A DNA stretch of 64,000 nt from Candidatus Poribacteria bacterium (lineage in GTDB: Bacteria > Poribacteria > WGA-4E > WGA-3G): the NCBI GenBank assembly GCA_965214095.1, contig OZ243938.1, positions 5,024,001 through 5,088,000 on the forward strand, given 5' to 3'. The stretch's first letter is position 1, and each line of letters begins with the position of its first letter. The position numbers and the translations under genes are program-made. Positions 3,113 through 58,566 of the stretch are shown here, piece after piece. Below the pieces are notes generated by a model that saw only the letters and a list, made by a program, of their open reading frames with translations, was not told the DNA's origin and searched no databases.

Positions 3113-5908
3113 TCAGTATGATGAGATATCCCACAGCAGCACAGTGCCATCCAAACTTCCGCTTGCCAATGTTTTGCCATCATAACTGAACGTAACAGAG
3201 TTAATTTGAGATGCATGTCCTTTGAATTTTGCTTTTTGCGTTCCAGTTGCGATGTCCCAAAGATATACACTAAGGTCTGTAACACCTGTGACTGCGGCAA
3301 TTTTGCTACCATCCGGACTAAAGGCAACGTCCAAAATCGTTCCCCTCTCAACAGGTTTTGATCTAGTTAATGTTCCTTTTTGCTTTCTTGTGGCAACATC
3401 CCATAGATGTACTTCTTTATCAATGCCAATAGCAAGTGTGCCTTCATCTGGACTAAATGCAACACCATGTATCCATTCTTTCTTATCAGGGAATTTTGTT
3501 ATTTGAGCTGCAGTGGCAACATCCCAAAGATACATACCGTCATATCCGACACTGACAAGCATTTTTCCATCAGGACTGAAGTCTACACGTTTCACACTGT
3601 CTTGATGTCCTATGAGTGTTGCTTTTTTCTCTCCTGTTGCAACATCCCACAGAATCACTGTACCGTTTCTACAACCGCTTGCGATCATTTTTCCATCAGT
3701 ACTGAATGTTGCACTTTCTACACAATTTGAACCTTTACCTTCTGTCCTTGAATCGTGTCCCTTATATCGTGCCTTTTCCTCCCCAGTCATTGCATCAAAC
3801 AGAAATACATTTGGATGAAAACCTCCGATAACAAATGTACTTCCATCCGGGCTGAATTCAATACTTAAGGGTCTGGGAAGAGTCTTCCTGTAGACAGTCT
3901 TGTAATTATTATTCGTTTCATCCCAAGTATATAACGACCAATTATCACCACCGTGGGCAAAAGACTTTCCATCTGAACTGAACGCAACACTCCAAACTAC
4001 TCCTATATATCCAGAAATTTGTGCAGAATGTTTTCCACCGCTACTATCCCAAAGTCGAACTGTGGAATCAATGCTTCCCGATGCTATTGTATTACCATCT
4101 GGACTAAATGCAACACTTAGGACCTGTGATGTATGTCCTATAAAGGTTGCAGTGTTTTTTCCAGTTGCAATATCGTACAGAAGCAATCCTTTCCAATATC
4201 CCACTGCTATTTTTTTAGCATCTGGACTGAAAGCGAGACTGCTGAGAAATAGTGCTTCCTGGCTCCCGGCAAAGGTCAACTTTTCTTCACTTGTGCTAAC
4301 ATCCCATAGTATCACTTTACCTTTAGCATCACCACTTGCGAGGTTTTTACCATCTGGACTGAAAGTTACACTTGTAACATTACGGGCATGCCCTTCGAGT
4401 TTAGAGAGTTGGACTCCCGTTCTCACATCACATAAACAAATTAAACCGTCCCTGCCTCCGCTTGCTAAGACTACACCGTCTGGACTGATAGCAACACTTT
4501 TGACTTGGTCTGTATGTTCTTGGAGTACAAATTTGTGTGTCCCAGTACTAAGATTCCATACAATCACTATGCCATCCTCACCACCACTTACAAGGGTTTC
4601 GCCATCAGAAGTGAACGCAAGACTAAAGATTGGTCCTGTATGTCCAGTGAGGGTTGCTTCTAATGCAGTGCTGTCAACATTCCAGATATAAATGAAACCC
4701 TCCGCACCACATGCAAGGGTTTTACCGTCCGGGGTAAATGCAACAGTGTACACTGTACTTGGCTGCATAGGAAATGTTTTAATAGGGAGACCTGTTGCAA
4801 TGTCCCATAGAATTGCAGTGCCATCATTACCCCCACTTGCAAGTGTGCGTCCATCCGGACTAAATGTAACACCATTAACTGGAATCTTATGTCCCTTGAG
4901 TGCTGCCTTTGATTTTGCACCAGCAATATCCCAGAAATCGATCTTATCCTCTGTGACACTGACCAAAATGCTTCCATTTGGATTGAAAGCAATGCATTTA
5001 ACATAGTTGGGAAACCCGAATTGTCGTTCTGCTATTCTCTTGCGTGTGTTTACATCCCACAACTGCATCTCCTCATTACTCGCAAATGCAAGTGTTTCAC
5101 CATCTGGACTGAAGACTACACTGGAAACGCTCCGTGTTTTGACCTCAAGTGAGTCAATGAATGTTGTATCAAGATCGAATAACCATAATATACCACGACC
5201 TTCTTCGTTCCATCCAGCAATTGCAAGTAATTTCTTATTCGTAGGATGAAACGCAAGATCTCCTATTTTTCCTGTATATTGGGTGAGAACTTTTTTCTGT
5301 TTACCAGTATCAACATCCCAGAGATGGATGGGTCCGTTGTAATTACAACTGGCAAGTGTCTTACCATCTGAACTGAAAACGACATAATTGATTCCTTGTG
5401 TATGTCCGGTGAGAACATCCTTTTGCTTGGATTTATCAGTGTCCCATAGGATAATGTTTCCTCCCCGTGTGCTACCTGCTAATGTAGTACCATCAGGACT
5501 ATACGCAATACTCACAATATAATCCTTTTTGGTGGGGAATGTTGCTTTTTGTGTGCCATCAGCAACGTTCCATAGCACGACTTGTCCTCCGTCTGCAGAA
5601 GCAAGAGTACTACCATCCGGACTGTAAGCCATGTTTCGGATGCTTTTCTTATTTGCAGAGAGTAAAACCCGTTCTTGATGTGTATGTGCATCATATAGCC
5701 AGATGCCGATATCTGTTGCCACAGCATAAGTATTACCGTCTGGTGAATAGGCAACATTGTGGATATTACCTTTCCCGAATCGAGCTTTTGCTCCTTCGGG
5801 CAAATTCCATTGCAATGAATCTTGAGAATAAGCGTTTGGCAAACATAACGAAAAGATGAAAAGTAGTATTAGGAGATGAAAGAAATGGGGTTTCATTGGT
5901 TGCCTCAT
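3113..5908 (-). CDS. Secreted WD40-repeat protein (~20 repeats, multiple beta-propellers)
   Basis: Signal peptide followed by repeated GH...V.SVAFSPDG..LASG..DG...LWD; start may be 5896. Confidence 0.95.
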   Translation of the reverse strand: MRQPMKPHFFHLLILLFIFSLCLPNAYSQDSLQWNLPEGAKARFGKGNIHNVAYSPDGNTYAVATDIGIWLYDAHTHQERVLLSANKKSIRNMAYSPDGSTLASADGGQVVLWNVADGTQKATFPTKKDYIVSIAYSPDGTTLAGSTRGGNIILWDTDKSKQKDVLTGHTQGINYVVFSSDGKTLASCNYNGPIHLWDVDTGKQKKVLTQYTGKIGDLAFHPTNKKLLAIAGWNEEGRGILWLFDLDTTFIDSLEVKTRSVSSVVFSPDGETLAFASNEEMQLWDVNTRKRIAERQFGFPNYVKCIAFNPNGSILVSVTEDKIDFWDIAGAKSKAALKGHKIPVNGVTFSPDGRTLASGGNDGTAILWDIATGLPIKTFPMQPSTVYTVAFTPDGKTLACGAEGFIYIWNVDSTALEATLTGHTGPIFSLAFTSDGETLVSGGEDGIVIVWNLSTGTHKFVLQEHTDQVKSVAISPDGVVLASGGRDGLICLCDVRTGVQLSKLEGHARNVTSVTFSPDGKNLASGDAKGKVILWDVSTSEEKLTFAGSQEALFLSSLAFSPDAKKIAVGYWKGLLLYDIATGKNTATFIGHTSQVLSVAFSPDGNTIASGSIDSTVRLWDSSGGKHSAQISGYIGVVWSVAFSSDGKSFAHGGDNWSLYTWDETNNNYKTVYRKTLPRPLSIEFSPDGSTFVIGGFHPNVFLFDAMTGEEKARYKGHDSRTEGKGSNCVESATFSTDGKMIASGCRNGTVILWDVATGEKKATLIGHQDSVKRVDFSPDGKMLVSVGYDGMYLWDVATAAQITKFPDKKEWIHGVAFSPDEGTLAIGIDKEVHLWDVATRKQKGTLTRSKPVERGTILDVAFSPDGSKIAAVTGVTDLSVYLWDIATGTQKAKFKGHASQINSVTFSYDGKTLASGSLDGTVLLWDISSY

Positions 5909-6074
5909 TAGGTTAAAGTTGATTTGTCTAAGTTATACCATATCTATAACGTCCCATTAATTCAACAGTTTACTATAAATTCAAAATCTCATAATGAACT
6001 ATTCTCTGTTAGAAATGGTATTATCTGAGAAGTCTTATCCTGCCAATCTACTAATGTTCTGTCTACACTAATCT

Positions 6075-6158
6075 TGTAGGTCGGGTAGAGGCACGAAACC
6101 CGACATGCAGCCATTTATCATCAATAAAGTCGGGTGTCGTGCCTCTACCCGACCTACA
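6075..6158. repeat. Inverted REP doublet (GTAGGTCGGGTAGAGGCACGA family) inside a remnant of the TGTCTGAACC element
   Basis: tgtaggtcgggtagaggcacga ... tcgtgcctctacccgacctaca. Confidence 0.85.
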
Positions 6159-6242
6159 ATGTCCGAATGGACACTCCACTAATCCTGCAAATCCTGGTTC
6201 AGACATTAGCGTAGCACGGAAACCTTCCAACAAGATAATTCG

Positions 6243-38411: not shown

Positions 38412-38624
38412 ATGCTCAAAATCAACCCGCAATATCTTGTTGATGACAAAGGCGAAAAAACCGCTGCGTCCCTGACAATCAAAGAATTCCAACTGATCAT
38501 GCAGCGTCTTGAAGATTTAGAAGATATTTCAGAGATGAATGCTGCAGTCGAAACCGAAACCAAGCAGAACTTATGGAATATGCCGAGACACAACTTTGAA
38601 AGTTATGTGCCTCGCGCAAGTTGA
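38412..38624 (+). CDS. Small antitoxin-like protein, possibly truncated
   Basis: PQYLVDDKGEKTAASLTIKEFQLIMQRLEDLEDI; RBS GGAGGA; promoter TTGACA-18-TATAAT at 38355-38384; no partner toxin follows. Confidence 0.55.
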   Translation: MLKINPQYLVDDKGEKTAASLTIKEFQLIMQRLEDLEDISEMNAAVETETKQNLWNMPRHNFESYVPRAS

Positions 38625-38687
38625 ATTGGGATAAGATGGACGAGGCGGAGCATGAAACTTTTGTTAATTACCTCATCCATGAGGATC

Positions 38688-38925
38688 TTCAGGCACCCAA
38701 GCCTAAAGGCATGGGATTGTGTTAATCTTCTGCCAGGCTTGATGTTCTTCGGTCTTGGCTCGTAACTTTACCTGTATGCCACCGAGGGGTCCCAGCGACC
38801 CACGATACAGAACCTCAGACACTTCCGACTTTGGAAGTTGTTCAAGCGAACTATCGTCTTCGAGTTACTTGGACACGGATATAATCAACGTGCCCCGATA
38901 TGCAAGACACTTCCGACTTGCTTGG
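38688..38925 (-). ncRNA. Putative structured ncRNA transcribed inside element A
   Basis: Downstream of TTGACA-17-TATTAT; helices gcaag/cttgc, gggcacg/cgtgtcc, gtaact/agttac, ctgtat/atacag, gggtc/gaccc. Confidence 0.55.
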
Positions 38926-38929
38926 GCAT

Positions 38930-38958
38930 ATAATAACAGACTTGACGTTTTCTGTCAA
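38930..38958 (-). promoter_or_regulatory. sigma70 promoter inside element A
   Basis: TTGACA-17bp-TATTAT. Confidence 0.75.
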
Positions 38959-39040
38959 GCAAAATATAGGAACAGGCATTCCTCCCACACCTAAAGAAGT
39001 GGGCTTCCTGCCTGAAACGTTGGTGAGTGAGAGATATATT

Positions 39041-39391
39041 ATGGAAAAGCAGAACCCTGTGGAACTTGAAAATATGTTTGACTTTATAAATCCAACGGCA
39101 ATCCGAATAAAAGGGACACGCGTCGGTATCGAAATTGTCATTGAGCAATTTCTTAAAGGGGCAGACCCAAGGGAAATTCAACGGCTCTATCCGAATCTGA
39201 CGTTGGGGCAGATTTATGTTACGATTACCTATTATCTGTTCAATAAGGAGAAAATTGATGCCTATATTGCAAAGGGCATCAAACAAGCTGAGGCTGCTTA
39301 TGAGGAACAACTAAAAAACCCGTCTCCTGGTGTCAAACGCCTCATGAAAATTAAAGCGGAACTTGAAGCACAAGGACATTATTCAGCGTAA
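39041..39391 (+). CDS. DUF433 family antitoxin
   Basis: IRIKGTRVGIEIVI...GADPREI...YPNLTLGQIYVTITYY; true start MEKQ (the upstream ORF extension is IS sequence). Confidence 0.85.
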   Translation: MEKQNPVELENMFDFINPTAIRIKGTRVGIEIVIEQFLKGADPREIQRLYPNLTLGQIYVTITYYLFNKEKIDAYIAKGIKQAEAAYEEQLKNPSPGVKRLMKIKAELEAQGHYSA

Positions 39392-55957: not shown

Positions 55958-58161
55958 TCAGAATTCTCATCCTCAGGTTGTTTTGCTGGATGAATTTCAT
56001 AAGTGGTTCCCTTGTAAGAAACAATCACATGTTTTCCTATTGAAAGATATTGTGAGATATCAGGTTCTTTCTTTAGCAGATCAAAATATGCATCGGTACC
56101 AAATTCAATCTTCTTGGTCTTTGTCTCAGATTTATATGTGGTATCAACCCAAACACCATCTTTAAGATGGAAGGTTTTATTTTTCACCTGCTTAATTGTA
56201 ATTGCCGTTTCTGCTAACTGCTCACCTTTCTGGAGTTTTTGTAACTCTATACTTTCTAGAACCACCATTTCTCTTGCGCTTGGTGCAGTTACAGGTTGTA
56301 CCAAATCAACATTAACTCTCGATTCACTGACCTTTGGAGCATGGGTACTAACAGATCGTGCCATTTTTGCATAAAGATCTGATCTCCCTCTTTGTGAGCG
56401 ACTTAAAACTGGATTCTGTTTCTGTTCTTCTGTTACAAGAAATGACGTGTAAGGCGTCATGATCCCGTACTTTTCGCTGAGTCGCACAATTTCCTCTTCC
56501 AATTCCTTATTTTCTCCGTTTAGCCTAACTTCGTCAACAAGATATGCAACCTTACGTTGTGCCCACAACCTTGGGAGAAATTGGTGATCGGACTCATTCT
56601 TTGGGAACTTTGCATTATTGGAGAATTCCTTTCTTTCTCCGTTGATGTCTCCATGCAAAATCAATTCAGATTTCCCGCTGCCTACATATCTGCCAAGTAC
56701 AGTCAACTGGGAACCGCGAAATAGATGTGGTAACTTCCGCGGATAGAGATTTTTTGTTTTTATGTTCTCTATTTCCAAATCCAAATTGACGAGAATAGGT
56801 TCGCTCACCTTTGTGTAGAAAGATGAAACAACGACCTCTAAATCTTCTTGCGGTTTGACATACTGACGTGTGCCACCGTTTTGTTCAGCCATTTTGTCAA
56901 GTAGATTGACGTTTACATCGTATCCGACACCGAAAACGAATATACGCGATTTATCCCCATTTCTTCCAGAGACATTCTTGAGAATTTGCGTGGCATCTGT
57001 TACACCGACAGTTGCTTCTCCATCAGTGAGAAAGACTACGATGCGCGGTCGTTTTGGGTCTGGTGTGTCGGATATAGCAGCAAGTAGTGCGTCATTGATA
57101 TTTGTGCCGCCAGTCCCTGTAATATCATCAATAAACTCAATTGCATTTTTGCGTTCCTTTTTGACAGAAACTAATTCTTTAGAAAACGGTTCAACATCTG
57201 TATTGAAAAGGATGAGGTTAAATCGGTCTCCATCGTTTAGATTTTCTACACAAAAACGGAGTGCCTTTTTCGCTTGCTCTATTTTAGGTCCTTTCATGCT
57301 TCCAGAACGGTCAAGAATAAAGATAAAGTCTTTTTCAATTATCTTTTTCTTATCAATCTCATATTTTGGAGAGATAAGGAGCATAAAAAAGCCATCTTCA
57401 TCTGGATCATCGCGATGGGTTATTAGGTCAATCCCGAAATCTTTGTCGGATAGGGAATAGTAGCAGGCAAAATCTCGTACAACATTAACATTATTTCCCT
57501 CATAACTGATTGTCGCACGATGATCATCTTTGCGATTAACTGCAACTTCATGTGAGGGGGAATAGATTGTCTTGAGTTCATGCTTGCTCTTTAGGTCAAT
57601 TGAAACGGAGAGACTACCAACAGGAAAATTCGTGAATTTGTCGGTTTTTAGTGGATATGTATATCTTGCTAATGCCGAATCTACACCTATAACCTGAGAG
57701 TATTCCAATTGGATACGTCTTTCTCCGTTTGGAGGAATTGGGAACACTCTTGCCTGAAATGCACGAGTGCCGACATACTCCAACAGTGCGGGGTCTTGCA
57801 TGGAACGGACAATCCCTTCATAGATACTCTTTGCTTTTGCTTTCGCGAGTAGTTCTGCTTTTACAGGTTGTCCATCTATGTATAGCACAAAATTTGAAAT
57901 GGCAACTTCATCTTGTAATGGAAAGAGATATGTGCCTTCAAGTTGCATGTTGTTTGGATTAGCGAATACCTGATCAATTTTCGTTGTTGCGAGCTGGTTG
58001 TCAATAGAAACGTTCACATGGTGTTTTTCAATTCTTAGGTTTTGGATTTGCGGTGCACGTCGTCCAGTCGTCCTGATTATTATGCCTTGTGCCTCAGCAA
58101 ATTGGACTACTCCCGCGAGGAGTAGTATTAATATGGTCGTGAGGAAATTTAATTTTCTCAT
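55954..58161 (-). CDS. Secreted VIT + VWA domain protein (inter-alpha-trypsin inhibitor-like)
   Basis: Signal peptide, VIT (QVFANP..EGTYLFP...DPALLE), MIDAS DRSGS, TNI, LTDG, WAQRKV, TPYTSFL. Confidence 0.92.
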   Translation of the reverse strand: MRKLNFLTTILILLLAGVVQFAEAQGIIIRTTGRRAPQIQNLRIEKHHVNVSIDNQLATTKIDQVFANPNNMQLEGTYLFPLQDEVAISNFVLYIDGQPVKAELLAKAKAKSIYEGIVRSMQDPALLEYVGTRAFQARVFPIPPNGERRIQLEYSQVIGVDSALARYTYPLKTDKFTNFPVGSLSVSIDLKSKHELKTIYSPSHEVAVNRKDDHRATISYEGNNVNVVRDFACYYSLSDKDFGIDLITHRDDPDEDGFFMLLISPKYEIDKKKIIEKDFIFILDRSGSMKGPKIEQAKKALRFCVENLNDGDRFNLILFNTDVEPFSKELVSVKKERKNAIEFIDDITGTGGTNINDALLAAISDTPDPKRPRIVVFLTDGEATVGVTDATQILKNVSGRNGDKSRIFVFGVGYDVNVNLLDKMAEQNGGTRQYVKPQEDLEVVVSSFYTKVSEPILVNLDLEIENIKTKNLYPRKLPHLFRGSQLTVLGRYVGSGKSELILHGDINGERKEFSNNAKFPKNESDHQFLPRLWAQRKVAYLVDEVRLNGENKELEEEIVRLSEKYGIMTPYTSFLVTEEQKQNPVLSRSQRGRSDLYAKMARSVSTHAPKVSESRVNVDLVQPVTAPSAREMVVLESIELQKLQKGEQLAETAITIKQVKNKTFHLKDGVWVDTTYKSETKTKKIEFGTDAYFDLLKKEPDISQYLSIGKHVIVSYKGTTYEIHPAKQPEDENSD

Positions 58162-58566
58162 CTAATCTTCGGGCAGGAGACCCAATCCTTTAGGTTTGGG
58201 AGGAATGCCCGCTCCTATGTTTTTCTTGACAATAAATGTCAAACTTGCTAAAATATATTCGGAAAGTTCAATCACACGTAGTCGTGTGTGAGGTTGTCCG
58301 CAGTCTTTGGTGCTATATGTTGCGGAGCATAAAACTGAAAAACATATACGCTCTCACTACCATAGACACATAACAATTGAGTGGTAGGGACATGGGAGGT
58401 AAAAAACCCAGTCCGAAAACACACTCTCAAATAATAAGTTGCTCTTTTAGAGCAAGTGAGGTTGCTTAGAACCCACTGTGGAGACGAAATAAGACGGATG
58501 ATCCTTTTGGTGAAACGCAACGTCTATGAAGCACAAGTCCAACCCTTTAGGTTTGGGTACTATGAC
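58162..58566 (+). mobile_element. Non-autonomous IS200/IS605-family element B (405 bp, no ORF) with internal promoter and omegaRNA-like cargo
   Basis: Target TCAT, guide GAGA at +16..+19, hairpin CCCAATCCT-TT-AGGTTTGGG; RE guide CAAG, hairpin, end TGAC; empty site rebuilds GGAGG-6nt-ATG. Confidence 0.88.
58226..58254 (+). promoter_or_regulatory. sigma70 promoter inside element B
   Basis: TTGACA-17bp-TAAAAT. Confidence 0.75.

What the first reader, a model, noticed from the sequence alone, without database searches (positions are those of the whole stretch)
38688..39022. Second protein-free IS200/IS605 element with the same chassis but a different structured RNA cargo
Seen: LE, promoter position (TTGACA-17-TATTAT) and RE architecture match element B, but the ~240-nt interior is unrelated. 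It has nested helices (gcaag/cttgc; gggcacg/cgtgtcc; gtaact...agttac enclosing ctgtat...atacag and gggtc/gaccc) and a 15-nt internal direct repeat AAGTCGGAAGTGTCT (plus strand 38817-38831 and 38905-38919). I cannot recognise it as a canonical TnpB or IscB omegaRNA. Inference: a possibly undescribed ncRNA class mobilised by TnpA, or the guide scaffold of a different OMEGA-type effector.
Basis: partly seen in the sequence, partly recalled or inferred. Interest (0 to 1): 0.75.

Follow-up and report, generated by a model that had tools for sequence, protein, structure and literature searches.

The report
Gene-less transposon carrying TnpB guide RNA
This 335-base stretch is a protein-free jumping element of a sponge-symbiont bacterium that carries its own promoter and a folded guide-RNA scaffold of the TnpB type; such elements are already described, and this is a well-conserved local variety.

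Summary
Window 38688-39022 is a real, recently mobile, protein-free IS200/IS605 element. The genome holds five copies at 96-100% identity, and a related genome has a scarless empty site joining 38687 to 39023. The left end (39022 side) holds a sigma-70 promoter (TTGACA-17-TATTAT, with TG). It would drive a ~235-nt RNA that ends at the right-end boundary (38688) and reads into the flank.

The RNA fold is conserved in Candidatus Poribacteria: 95.7% of cells pair, 23 of 43 pairs show compensatory changes, and one helix forms a pseudoknot. It has the hallmarks of a TnpB omegaRNA:
- a first hairpin whose loop covaries with the last bases before the guide;
- a terminal hairpin with a UUUA loop at -20..-17, as in ISDra2;
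- a 3' part shared with RNAs at the ends of tnpB genes.

The 5' two-thirds match no tnpB-linked RNA. No copy examined carries tnpB. Transcription and TnpB binding are not shown.

Verdict: a stand-alone omegaRNA (PATE-like) element served in trans by TnpA and TnpB. The kind is known. This scan found similar elements before on other DNA. Interest is modest.

The parts
39023..39027 (-). Target / TAM-like motif YTCAC, directly 5' of the left end. It is flank, not part of the element.
   Evidence: All 5 copies have C/T then TCAC before the element. The full TnpA+TnpB IS copies have TTCAC. The motif is kept once in the empty site of G032.
38960..39022 (-). Left end (LE) with a subterminal hairpin (38984-39003, CCCAC..CTTTAG..GTGGG).
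   Evidence: Conserved in all 5 copies. It is 79-88% like the LE of a tnpB-only IS at G000:C1:325905-325994 and of element B.
38930..38958 (-). Sigma-70-type promoter: TTGACA, 17 nt, TG-TATTAT. The inferred start of the RNA is near 38923.
   Evidence: 11 of 12 matches. A promoter-like site of at least 9 of 12 sits at the same relative place in 14 of 20 family members that have upstream sequence. The start site itself is inferred.
38869..38923 (-). 5' add-on of the RNA, made of two hairpins. The loop of the first holds copy 1 of the 15-nt repeat (38905-38919).
   Evidence: Present in members from genera g1 and g5 and absent in family f3. Compensatory changes were seen by eye and not counted.
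38688..38868 (-). Conserved RNA body (181 nt). Helices: H1 38864-38856 with 38820-38814; H2 38851-38848 with 38843-38840; H3 38838-38833 with 38826-38821; pseudoknot 1 38810-38805 with 38777-38772; first omegaRNA-type hairpin H6 38800-38788 (loop 38796-38792); H7 38786-38778 with 38759-38748; invariant GUAAAGUUACGAG 38771-38759.
   Evidence: Alignment A1, pair counts, coordinates.
38817..38831 (-). Copy 2 of the 15-nt direct repeat. It forms the 3' strand of H3 and the start of the 3' strand of H1.
38688..38715 (-). Right end (RE): hairpin CCCAUGCC-UUUA-GGCUUGGG (38715-38696) and tail UGCCUGAA (38695-38688). Tail bases -6..-2 pair with the H6 loop to form pseudoknot 2.
   Evidence: Near-identical to the RE of the 4 TnpA+TnpB(420 aa) IS copies. 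Pseudoknot 2 was counted. The UUUA loop lies at -20..-17 from the boundary.
38668..38687 (-). Inferred guide: the flank that the RNA would read into (GAUCCUCAUGGAUGAGG...).
   Evidence: Inference from the anatomy. The empty allele in G032 has YTCAC followed by the same 17-18 bases. That would make it the target of this guide.

Best explanation
This is a non-autonomous, protein-free IS200/IS605 element (PATE-like) lying on the window's minus strand. It is essentially a mobile gene for a stand-alone TnpB-type omegaRNA.

Shown:
- exact boundaries, five near-identical copies and a scarless empty site in a relative;
- insertion right after YTCAC with no target duplication;
- hairpin ends related to those of the resident TnpA+TnpB and tnpB-only IS elements;
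- a strong promoter motif inside the left end that points at the right end;
- a conserved, doubly pseudoknotted RNA fold that ends exactly at the right-end boundary.

Inferred:
- The promoter fires near 38923, and the RNA runs through the right end into the flank. Its last ~16-20 nt would then be a guide that matches the locus's own empty site.
- The single Y1 transposase type of the genome (TnpA, 4 full copies) excises and inserts the element as single-stranded DNA.
- A TnpB made elsewhere loads the RNA and cuts the emptied site (YTCAC plus guide). Recombination then restores the element. The most likely TnpB is the 420-aa one linked to TnpA.

On this reading the element exploits both enzymes in trans.
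For: 1. Mobility and boundaries. There are 5 full copies among the 13 matches, and their flanks diverge at the same bases. G032 joins window 38687 to 39023.

2. IS200/IS605 setting. The genome has 5 Y1_Tnp matches and 22 TnpB zinc-ribbon matches. The element's RE hairpin and tail match those of the four TnpA+TnpB IS copies. Its LE matches that of a tnpB-only IS.

3. Real RNA structure. On 20 sequences from 16 genomes, 95.7% of 839 cells pair and 23 of 43 pairs have changes on both sides. None of 500 shuffles reaches this, and slid controls pair at 26-51%. G-U pairs fix the strand: pair 8-112 is G-U in 19 of 20 sequences and would be A-C on the other strand.

4. omegaRNA hallmarks.
- The H6 loop pairs with the tail next to the boundary. 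Pair 181-300 is GC in 12, CG in 7 and UG in 1, with none unpaired. Overall 86.7% pair, against 8-47% when slid.
- Read by eye, the same loop/tail complementarity is present in the 3' regions of 10 of the 11 tnpB genes printed (the nine of 323-420 aa there), with different sequences, and in L103. I did not read the two large (527-549 aa) ones.
- This matches the ISDra2 structure, where -5..-3 pair with -103..-105 and the UUUA loop lies at -20..-17 (PMC10097598, passages read). Here UUUA also lies at -20..-17.

5. Link to tnpB.
- Covariance model R1 of the 3' 119 positions scores the 5 copies at 105-108 bits. The next best hits in the 5.2-Mb genome are the 3' ends of all 4 TnpA+TnpB IS copies (30.7-23.5 bits, E 8e-4 to 0.05).
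- In relatives, 5 of 20 sampled intermediate hits lie on the 3' end of 408-430-aa TnpB ORFs (open-frame lengths). Another 2 of 20 are mini-elements of LE, promoter and that omegaRNA.
- With the RE removed, family-f3 members still match those tnpB-linked RNAs (z up to 14).
- Those TnpBs are closest to the 420-aa TnpB of this genome (243 against 157 bits for the next).

6. The promoter is conserved in place in 14 of 20 members. No strong terminator lies between the RNA and the RE: the two terminator-like sites lie at the promoter and in the 5' add-on.

7. The kind is described: PATEs 'often encode omegaRNAs' acted on in trans (PMC10055086, passage), and stand-alone omegaRNAs work in trans (PMC10691335, passage).
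Against: - The 5' domain and the core inside H7 (the invariant GUAAAGUUACGAG and pseudoknot 1) are absent from the tnpB-linked omegaRNAs I aligned or read (7 tnpB-linked sequences and 2 gene-less minis; 11 own 3' regions printed).
- Alignment columns 1-200 have no significant similarity to tnpB-linked regions (z at most 3.3). There is no blastx match to TnpB (all E above 1).
- This genome's own copy has no significant direct similarity to tnpB-linked RNAs once the RE is removed (z at most 1.2). Its link therefore runs through the family.
- On the resident TnpB IS, the covariance model aligned only H6 and the 3' part and skipped H7.
- I found no copy with this core next to tnpB in any set I examined: 0 of 5 here, 0 of 12, 0 of 13 and 0 of the 40 copies fetched out of 47 in G087. 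The cognate TnpB is therefore a guess.
- Transcription, RNA ends and binding are not shown. Single-sequence folding does not favour the minus strand (z -1.9, against -4.1 for the plus strand).
- One pseudoknot-2 pair is U-U in 8 of 20 sequences.
Confidence: 0.75

Rival explanations
1. The RNA is an exapted or independent cargo. It keeps an omegaRNA-derived 3' end only because that end doubles as the TnpA-recognised right end. Its conserved 5' domain and core serve something other than guiding TnpB: another effector, a regulatory or antisense RNA, or a decoy that competes for TnpB.
For: - The most conserved parts (GUCUGAGGUU, GUAAAGUUACGAG, pseudoknot 1) have no counterpart in tnpB-linked RNAs.
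- The same core is joined to at least two different right-end hairpin types (L115, L116, L120).
- No copy examined carries tnpB.
- The RNA reads antisense into the neighbouring small gene at 38413-38624.
Against: - The guide-proximal pseudoknot between H6 loop and tail covaries. It is needed for a guide RNA, not for TnpA recognition.
- The scaffold ends exactly at the boundary in the ISDra2 register.
- Neighbours differ at every copy, so no common antisense target exists.
- TnpB genes are abundant wherever the family is abundant: 101 matches in G087 and 84 in G092.
Confidence: 0.13
2. It is a decaying deletion remnant of a tnpB IS that is still moved by TnpA. The RNA has no present function, and its conservation only reflects recent spread.
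For: - The copies in this genome are 96-100% identical, which needs no selection.
- Some relatives have lost the promoter (G003, G020).
Against: - Members from two families of the order are only ~72-85% identical, yet 95.7% of pairs are kept, with many compensatory changes.
- Motifs are invariant across 20 sequences.
- The promoter is kept in place in 14 of 20.

This is the signature of purifying selection on the RNA.
Confidence: 0.07
3. It is an IscB/IsrB-type omegaRNA (HEARO-like) or another known RNA family or ribozyme.
Against: - No Rfam family matches, even at E up to 10.
- IscB/IsrB guides lie at the 5' end of the RNA, outside the element's end. Here the promoter is inside the element and points to the other end.
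- Caveat: Rfam is also silent on the true tnpB 3' regions here, so its silence alone is weak evidence.
Confidence: 0.02

Closest known systems
PATE-like protein-less IS200/IS605 elements that encode omegaRNAs (Geobacillus stearothermophilus ISGst families; Meers et al. 2023, PMC10055086, passages read)
   Same: - Transposon ends without any protein gene.
- An omegaRNA that must use TnpB from another element.
- Mobilisation by TnpA in trans.
   Different: - Different phylum (Candidatus Poribacteria).
- A strong promoter of its own in the left end.
- An RNA with an extra conserved 5' domain, a second pseudoknot and a remodelled core that I found in no tnpB-linked copy.
Stand-alone omegaRNAs of OMEGA systems (Altae-Tran et al. 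2021, as summarised in PMC10691335; passage read; the original paper not seen)
   Same: Guide RNA loci that are evidently mobilised, lack an effector or transposase, and sit in genomes that hold effector-containing loci.
   Different: Those were shown to work in trans experimentally. Here nothing is shown beyond sequence.
ISDra2 TnpB omegaRNA (Deinococcus radiodurans; cryo-EM, PMC10097598, passages read)
   Same: - The scaffold ends at the RE boundary with the guide in the flank.
- The terminal hairpin has a UUUA loop at -20..-17.
- A pseudoknot joins the bases just before the guide to the loop of a hairpin about 105 nt upstream.
   Different: - No detectable sequence similarity was tested (I held no ISDra2 sequence).
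- The middle of the scaffold differs: a single helix, H7, whose loop forms a further pseudoknot with a 5' domain.
- It does not overlap a tnpB gene.
The resident TnpA + TnpB(420 aa) IS of the same genome (G000:C1 about 4229950-4231713 and 3 more copies)
   Same: - Right-end hairpin and tail (...GCCTTTAGGCTTGGGT..TGAA).
- Target TTCAC.
- First hairpin with a GCUGN loop.
- It is the best non-self covariance-model hit.
   Different: - It encodes both proteins.
- Its left end differs.
- The RNA between the first hairpin and the 3' part is longer and unlike this element's.

Membership tests
IS200/IS605 non-autonomous (PATE-like) element | Subterminal hairpins at both ends and no terminal inverted repeats | tested here: met
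   LE hairpin at 38984-39003 and RE hairpin at 38696-38715, both of the form CCC..CTTTAG..GGG. The two ends are not inverted repeats of each other.
IS200/IS605 non-autonomous (PATE-like) element | Insertion 3' of a short conserved target, no target duplication, and a scarless empty site | tested here: met
   YTCAC lies before all 5 copies. The empty site in G032 joins 38687 to 39023 with one copy of the motif.
IS200/IS605 non-autonomous (PATE-like) element | No protein-coding gene inside | tested here: met
   The only internal ORF (79 aa, plus strand, TTG start) is not kept open in relatives such as G003a, G020 and G043a.
IS200/IS605 non-autonomous (PATE-like) element | A Y1 transposase with related ends in the same genome | tested here: met
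   5 PF01797 matches, 4 of them full-length and next to TnpB. Their IS has a near-identical right end.
IS200/IS605 non-autonomous (PATE-like) element | Excision and insertion catalysed by TnpA | not testable with these tools
   Only inferred, from the copy number and the empty site.
TnpB-type omegaRNA (reRNA) | The scaffold ends at the RE boundary on the LE-to-RE strand, so the guide comes from the flank | tested here: met
   The conserved fold ends at 38688. The promoter points that way, and G-U pairs fix the strand. Read-through into the flank is inferred.
TnpB-type omegaRNA (reRNA) | A pseudoknot between the bases just 5' of the guide and an upstream hairpin loop (ISDra2: -5..-3 with -103..-105) | tested here: met
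   H6 loop (-108..-104) pairs with the tail (-6..-2). Pair 181-300 is GC 12, CG 7, UG 1. Overall 86.7% pair against 8-47% when slid. The same complementarity is read by eye in the tnpB-linked RNAs of 323-420 aa.
TnpB-type omegaRNA (reRNA) | Terminal hairpin with its tetraloop about 17-20 nt before the guide | tested here: met
   UUUA at -20..-17, against the passage in PMC10097598.
TnpB-type omegaRNA (reRNA) | Homology to an RNA encoded at the 3' end of a tnpB gene | tested here: inconclusive
   - For: covariance-model hits on 4 of 4 TnpA+TnpB IS copies; 5 of 20 sampled relatives lie on tnpB 3' ends; the 3' part gives z up to 14 for family-f3 members.
- Against: no similarity for the 5' two-thirds, and none directly for this genome's copy.
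TnpB-type omegaRNA (reRNA) | Transcribed, bound by TnpB, and directs TAM-dependent DNA cleavage | not testable with these tools
   The RNA-library contigs gave no verdict.
IscB/IsrB omegaRNA (HEARO) or any Rfam family | Match to the family's covariance model | tested here: not met
   0 matches at gathering score over the whole window. Only a chance miRNA match (E 2.1) in 38550-39150.

The most novel reading that the evidence does not exclude
The RNA is an orphan guide-RNA lineage that has evolved as a replicator of its own across Candidatus Poribacteria. It reaches 47 copies in one genome, and no examined copy carries tnpB.

In this reading it has replaced the inner stems of its ancestral omegaRNA with a new 5' domain and a second pseudoknot. 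The remodelled scaffold might let it load into several TnpB clades. Alternatively it might act as a switchable or competing RNA: the conserved 15-nt repeat offers two alternative partners for ACUUCC. That would make it a hyperparasite of both TnpA and TnpB rather than a mere deletion remnant.
Probability: 0.15. Interest if true: 0.6.

Novelty: new member of a known kind. Interest (0 to 1): 0.3.

Why it matters
This finding gives a cleanly delimited natural example of a stand-alone omegaRNA gene. It has its own promoter, a covariation-supported fold, a confirmed empty site, and a guide and TAM that can be read off the insertion site.

It also defines an RNA family that Rfam lacks. The family is widespread in sponge-symbiont Poribacteria: model R1 matched 66 of 141 genomes, but those matches include the tnpB-linked omegaRNAs and gene-less minis as well as this family, so the family's own share was not counted.

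If the remodelled scaffold still works with TnpB, it shows which parts of an omegaRNA are dispensable or replaceable. That is useful for engineering compact guide RNAs. As a principle it adds nothing new, because PATE-like elements that encode omegaRNAs are known.

Tried and rejected
- **Rfam.** Searches at gathering score and at E up to 10 found nothing. True tnpB 3' regions of these genomes are equally silent, so this says little.
- **nhmmer.** A profile of the RNA body against the genome found only the 5 copies, plus E~1 hits on the element B family.
- **Direct similarity to tnpB regions.** Smith-Waterman of the interior against 20 tnpB 3' regions of this genome gave z of at most 3.9. My impression of tnpB coding remnants (ACGCTGCG and similar) in the 5' domain did not survive shuffling controls or blastx, so I dropped it.
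- **Models and alignments.** Alignment A2 misplaced the 5' motif and I discarded it.
- **Public collections.** A core 23-mer in genome contigs gave only 12 Poribacteria loci. A core 20-mer in metagenome contigs gave 0. The second metagenome scan that is allowed after an empty first one was not run.
- **RNA-seq.** Only assembled contigs were available. Three of the four sponge metatranscriptome runs I laid hold pieces 88-95% like parts of 38695-38922, from relatives. Nothing lay on 38932-39027. One 95-nt contig on the core has word depth 6854. These data cannot show transcription, strand or ends, so they give no verdict.
- **Single-sequence folding.** It does not tell the strand.
- **Ribozyme idea.** A hammerhead-like reading of CUGAGG...GAAAC was considered by eye and dropped, since no Rfam ribozyme model matches.
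- **Earlier notes.** A look-up of the scan's notes by sequence found no look-alike.
- **Literature.** No paper in the library holds both 'Poribacteria' and 'TnpB'.

Full report
**What is there.** Window 38688-39022 (335 nt) is one of five copies of the same element in this genome. The copies are 96-100% identical. Aligned with 60-nt flanks, they lose all similarity at the same two bases. A related genome, G032, has the same locus without the element: window 38687 joins directly to 39023, with nothing added or lost. The organism is a Candidatus Poribacteria, judged from the record titles of related loci.

**Orientation and ends.** All copies are preceded by C/T+TCAC on the 39022 side and end in ...GGGTGCCTGAA on the 38688 side.
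- The genome has four full IS200/IS605 copies with a 141-aa Y1 transposase (open-frame length) and a 420-aa TnpB.
- These sit after TTCAC and end in ...GCCTTTAGGCTTGGGTAGTTGAA. That is almost the same right end as the 38688 end of this element, read on the minus strand.
- The 39022 end resembles the left end of a tnpB-only IS (C1:325900-327287) and of element B.

**Promoter.** The promoter TTGACA-17-TG-TATTAT (38958..38930, 11 of 12 matches) sits inside the left end and points at the right end. A comparable site lies at the same relative place in 14 of 20 family members.

**The RNA is real and structured.** DNA and covariance-model searches found relatives in 43 of 101 genomes and 66 of 141 genomes. 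By family, model R1 hit f1 in 43 of 84, f3 in 22 of 29, and the seven other families in 0 of 27. These R1 matches include tnpB-linked omegaRNAs and gene-less minis as well as this family. One genome holds 47 copies of the core motif.

I aligned 20 sequences from 16 genomes (A1) and counted a fold of 43 pairs:
- 95.7% of 839 cells are paired.
- 23 pairs have changes on both sides.
- 0 of 500 shuffles reach this.
- Slid controls pair at 26-51%.

The helix ctgtat/atacag crosses helix H7, which makes a pseudoknot. Frequent G-U pairs fix the RNA strand as the window's minus strand: pair 8-112 is G-U in 19 of 20 and would be A-C on the other strand. Single-sequence folding could not tell the strand.

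**Why it is a TnpB-type omegaRNA.**
1. The conserved fold ends exactly at the right-end boundary, so a read-through transcript would take its 3' end from the flank.
2. The last hairpin has a UUUA loop at -20..-17 from the boundary. The ISDra2 omegaRNA has the same loop in the same register (PMC10097598, passages read).
3. The loop of hairpin H6 (-108..-104) is complementary to the tail (-6..-2), and the two covary. One pair is GC in 12, CG in 7 and UG in 1 of 20 sequences. A second pair is paired in 12 and U-U in 8. In ISDra2 the guide-proximal pseudoknot joins -5..-3 to -103..-105.
4. Read by eye, the same loop/tail complementarity, with other sequences, is present at the 3' ends of the tnpB genes of 323-420 aa printed (10 of the 11 printed; the two large 527-549-aa ones were not read).
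5. Covariance model R1 of the 3' 119 positions scores the five copies at 105-108 bits. Its next best hits in the whole genome are the 3' ends of all four TnpA+TnpB IS copies (30.7-23.5 bits).
6. Of 20 intermediate hits sampled in relatives:
   - 5 lie on the 3' end of 408-430-aa TnpB ORFs (open-frame lengths);
   - 2 are mini-elements made of LE, promoter and that omegaRNA;
   - 13 are protein-free elements with this family's core.
7. With the right end removed, family-f3 members still match those tnpB-linked RNAs (z up to 14). Those TnpBs are closest to this genome's 420-aa TnpB.

**What does not fit.**
- The 5' domain and the invariant core GUAAAGUUACGAG inside H7 have no counterpart in the tnpB-linked RNAs I aligned or read.
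- Columns 1-200 of A1 show no significant similarity to those regions (z at most 3.3).
- blastx finds no TnpB remnant.
- This genome's own copy shows no significant direct similarity once the right end is removed.
- On the resident IS, the model aligned only H6 and the 3' part.
- No copy with this core was next to tnpB in any set examined: 0 of 5 here, 0 of 12 (I judged ORFs by size and strand and ran no family search), 0 of 13, and 0 of the 40 copies fetched out of 47 in G087.

The partner TnpB is therefore inferred. Transcription is not shown, because the RNA-library data were contigs only and gave no verdict.

**How it most likely works.**
- TnpA made by the full IS copies excises and inserts the element after YTCAC.
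- The internal promoter makes the RNA.
- A TnpB made elsewhere loads the RNA and cuts the emptied locus.
- That locus carries YTCAC followed by the same 17-18 bases as the flank, as seen in the empty allele of G032.
- Repair from a sister copy then restores the element.

This is the model published for IS200/IS605 (PMC10055086). That paper also notes that PATE elements often encode omegaRNAs acted on in trans. PMC10691335 states that stand-alone omegaRNAs work in trans with compatible effectors. I read passages of both papers.

**Comparison and novelty.** This is a new member of a known kind.
- Notes from this scan report similar promoter-plus-omegaRNA mini-elements in other genomes. I did not check those notes.
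- No paper in the library holds both 'Poribacteria' and 'TnpB', and Rfam has no such family.
- The particular points here are the remodelled scaffold, the extra 5' add-on with a conserved 15-nt repeat, and the absence of tnpB next to every examined copy.

These leave a modest chance (about 0.15) that the RNA has become more than a passive guide.

Noticed in passing
window 58157-58566 (+): Element B is another protein-free element with a similar left end. Its RNA has an H6 loop GCUUAG and a tail UAUGAC, like the omegaRNAs of the 370/373-aa TnpBs of this genome. It therefore looks like a stand-alone omegaRNA of a second TnpB clade.
   Followed up: partly
loci L092, L095, L101, L102 (relatives), at the left end: In relatives the target TTCAT is the reverse complement of ATGAA. 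Elements therefore sit directly 5' of the start codons of unrelated genes, and the reading frames all begin ...NLM at the LE.
   Followed up: partly
window 38905-38919 and 38817-38831 (-): The conserved 15-nt repeat puts the same GGAAGU in the loop of the 5' hairpin and in the 3' strand of H3. Both can pair with ACUUCC (38838-38833), so an alternative fold is possible. I have no explanation for it.
   Followed up: no
alignment (flank columns): Target and right-end tip change together. Copies in G000, G019 and G031 have YTCAC...TGAA, while other members have TTCAT(C)...TGAC/T. The first pattern is the same as in the resident TnpA+TnpB IS.
   Followed up: no
loci L115, L116, L120: The same RNA core is joined to a second type of right-end hairpin (CCTCACGA-TTTAT-CGTGAGG, then TGGCACTTGAC). 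This suggests modular exchange of ends.
   Followed up: no
window 38739-38772: One sponge metatranscriptome run (X4) holds a 95-nt contig with word depth 6854 on the invariant core. The contig continues unlike the window on the 3' side of the RNA. Contigs on the flanking genes had depths of 45-100. It may be an abundant small RNA of a relative, but contig depth is not a reliable measure.
   Followed up: no
G000:C1:2068043-2068374: One copy of the element lies 45 nt beyond the right end of a 370-aa tnpB IS, in the opposite orientation.
   Followed up: partly
window 3164-5632; 6074-6159; 24033, 27123, 27227: Three other repeat features:
- a long run of ~126-nt periodic repeats that looks like a repeat-protein gene;
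- a 31-nt near-perfect palindrome;
- a three-copy 48-nt repeat with a GCGGTTTCCTAACCGC hairpin.
   Followed up: no
window 38413-38624 and 39042-39391: The element sits between a small gene and a second small gene, and G032 has the same arrangement at its empty site. I took them by eye, with no family search, for an antitoxin-like gene and a DUF433-like gene. The RNA would read antisense into the first gene.
   Followed up: no
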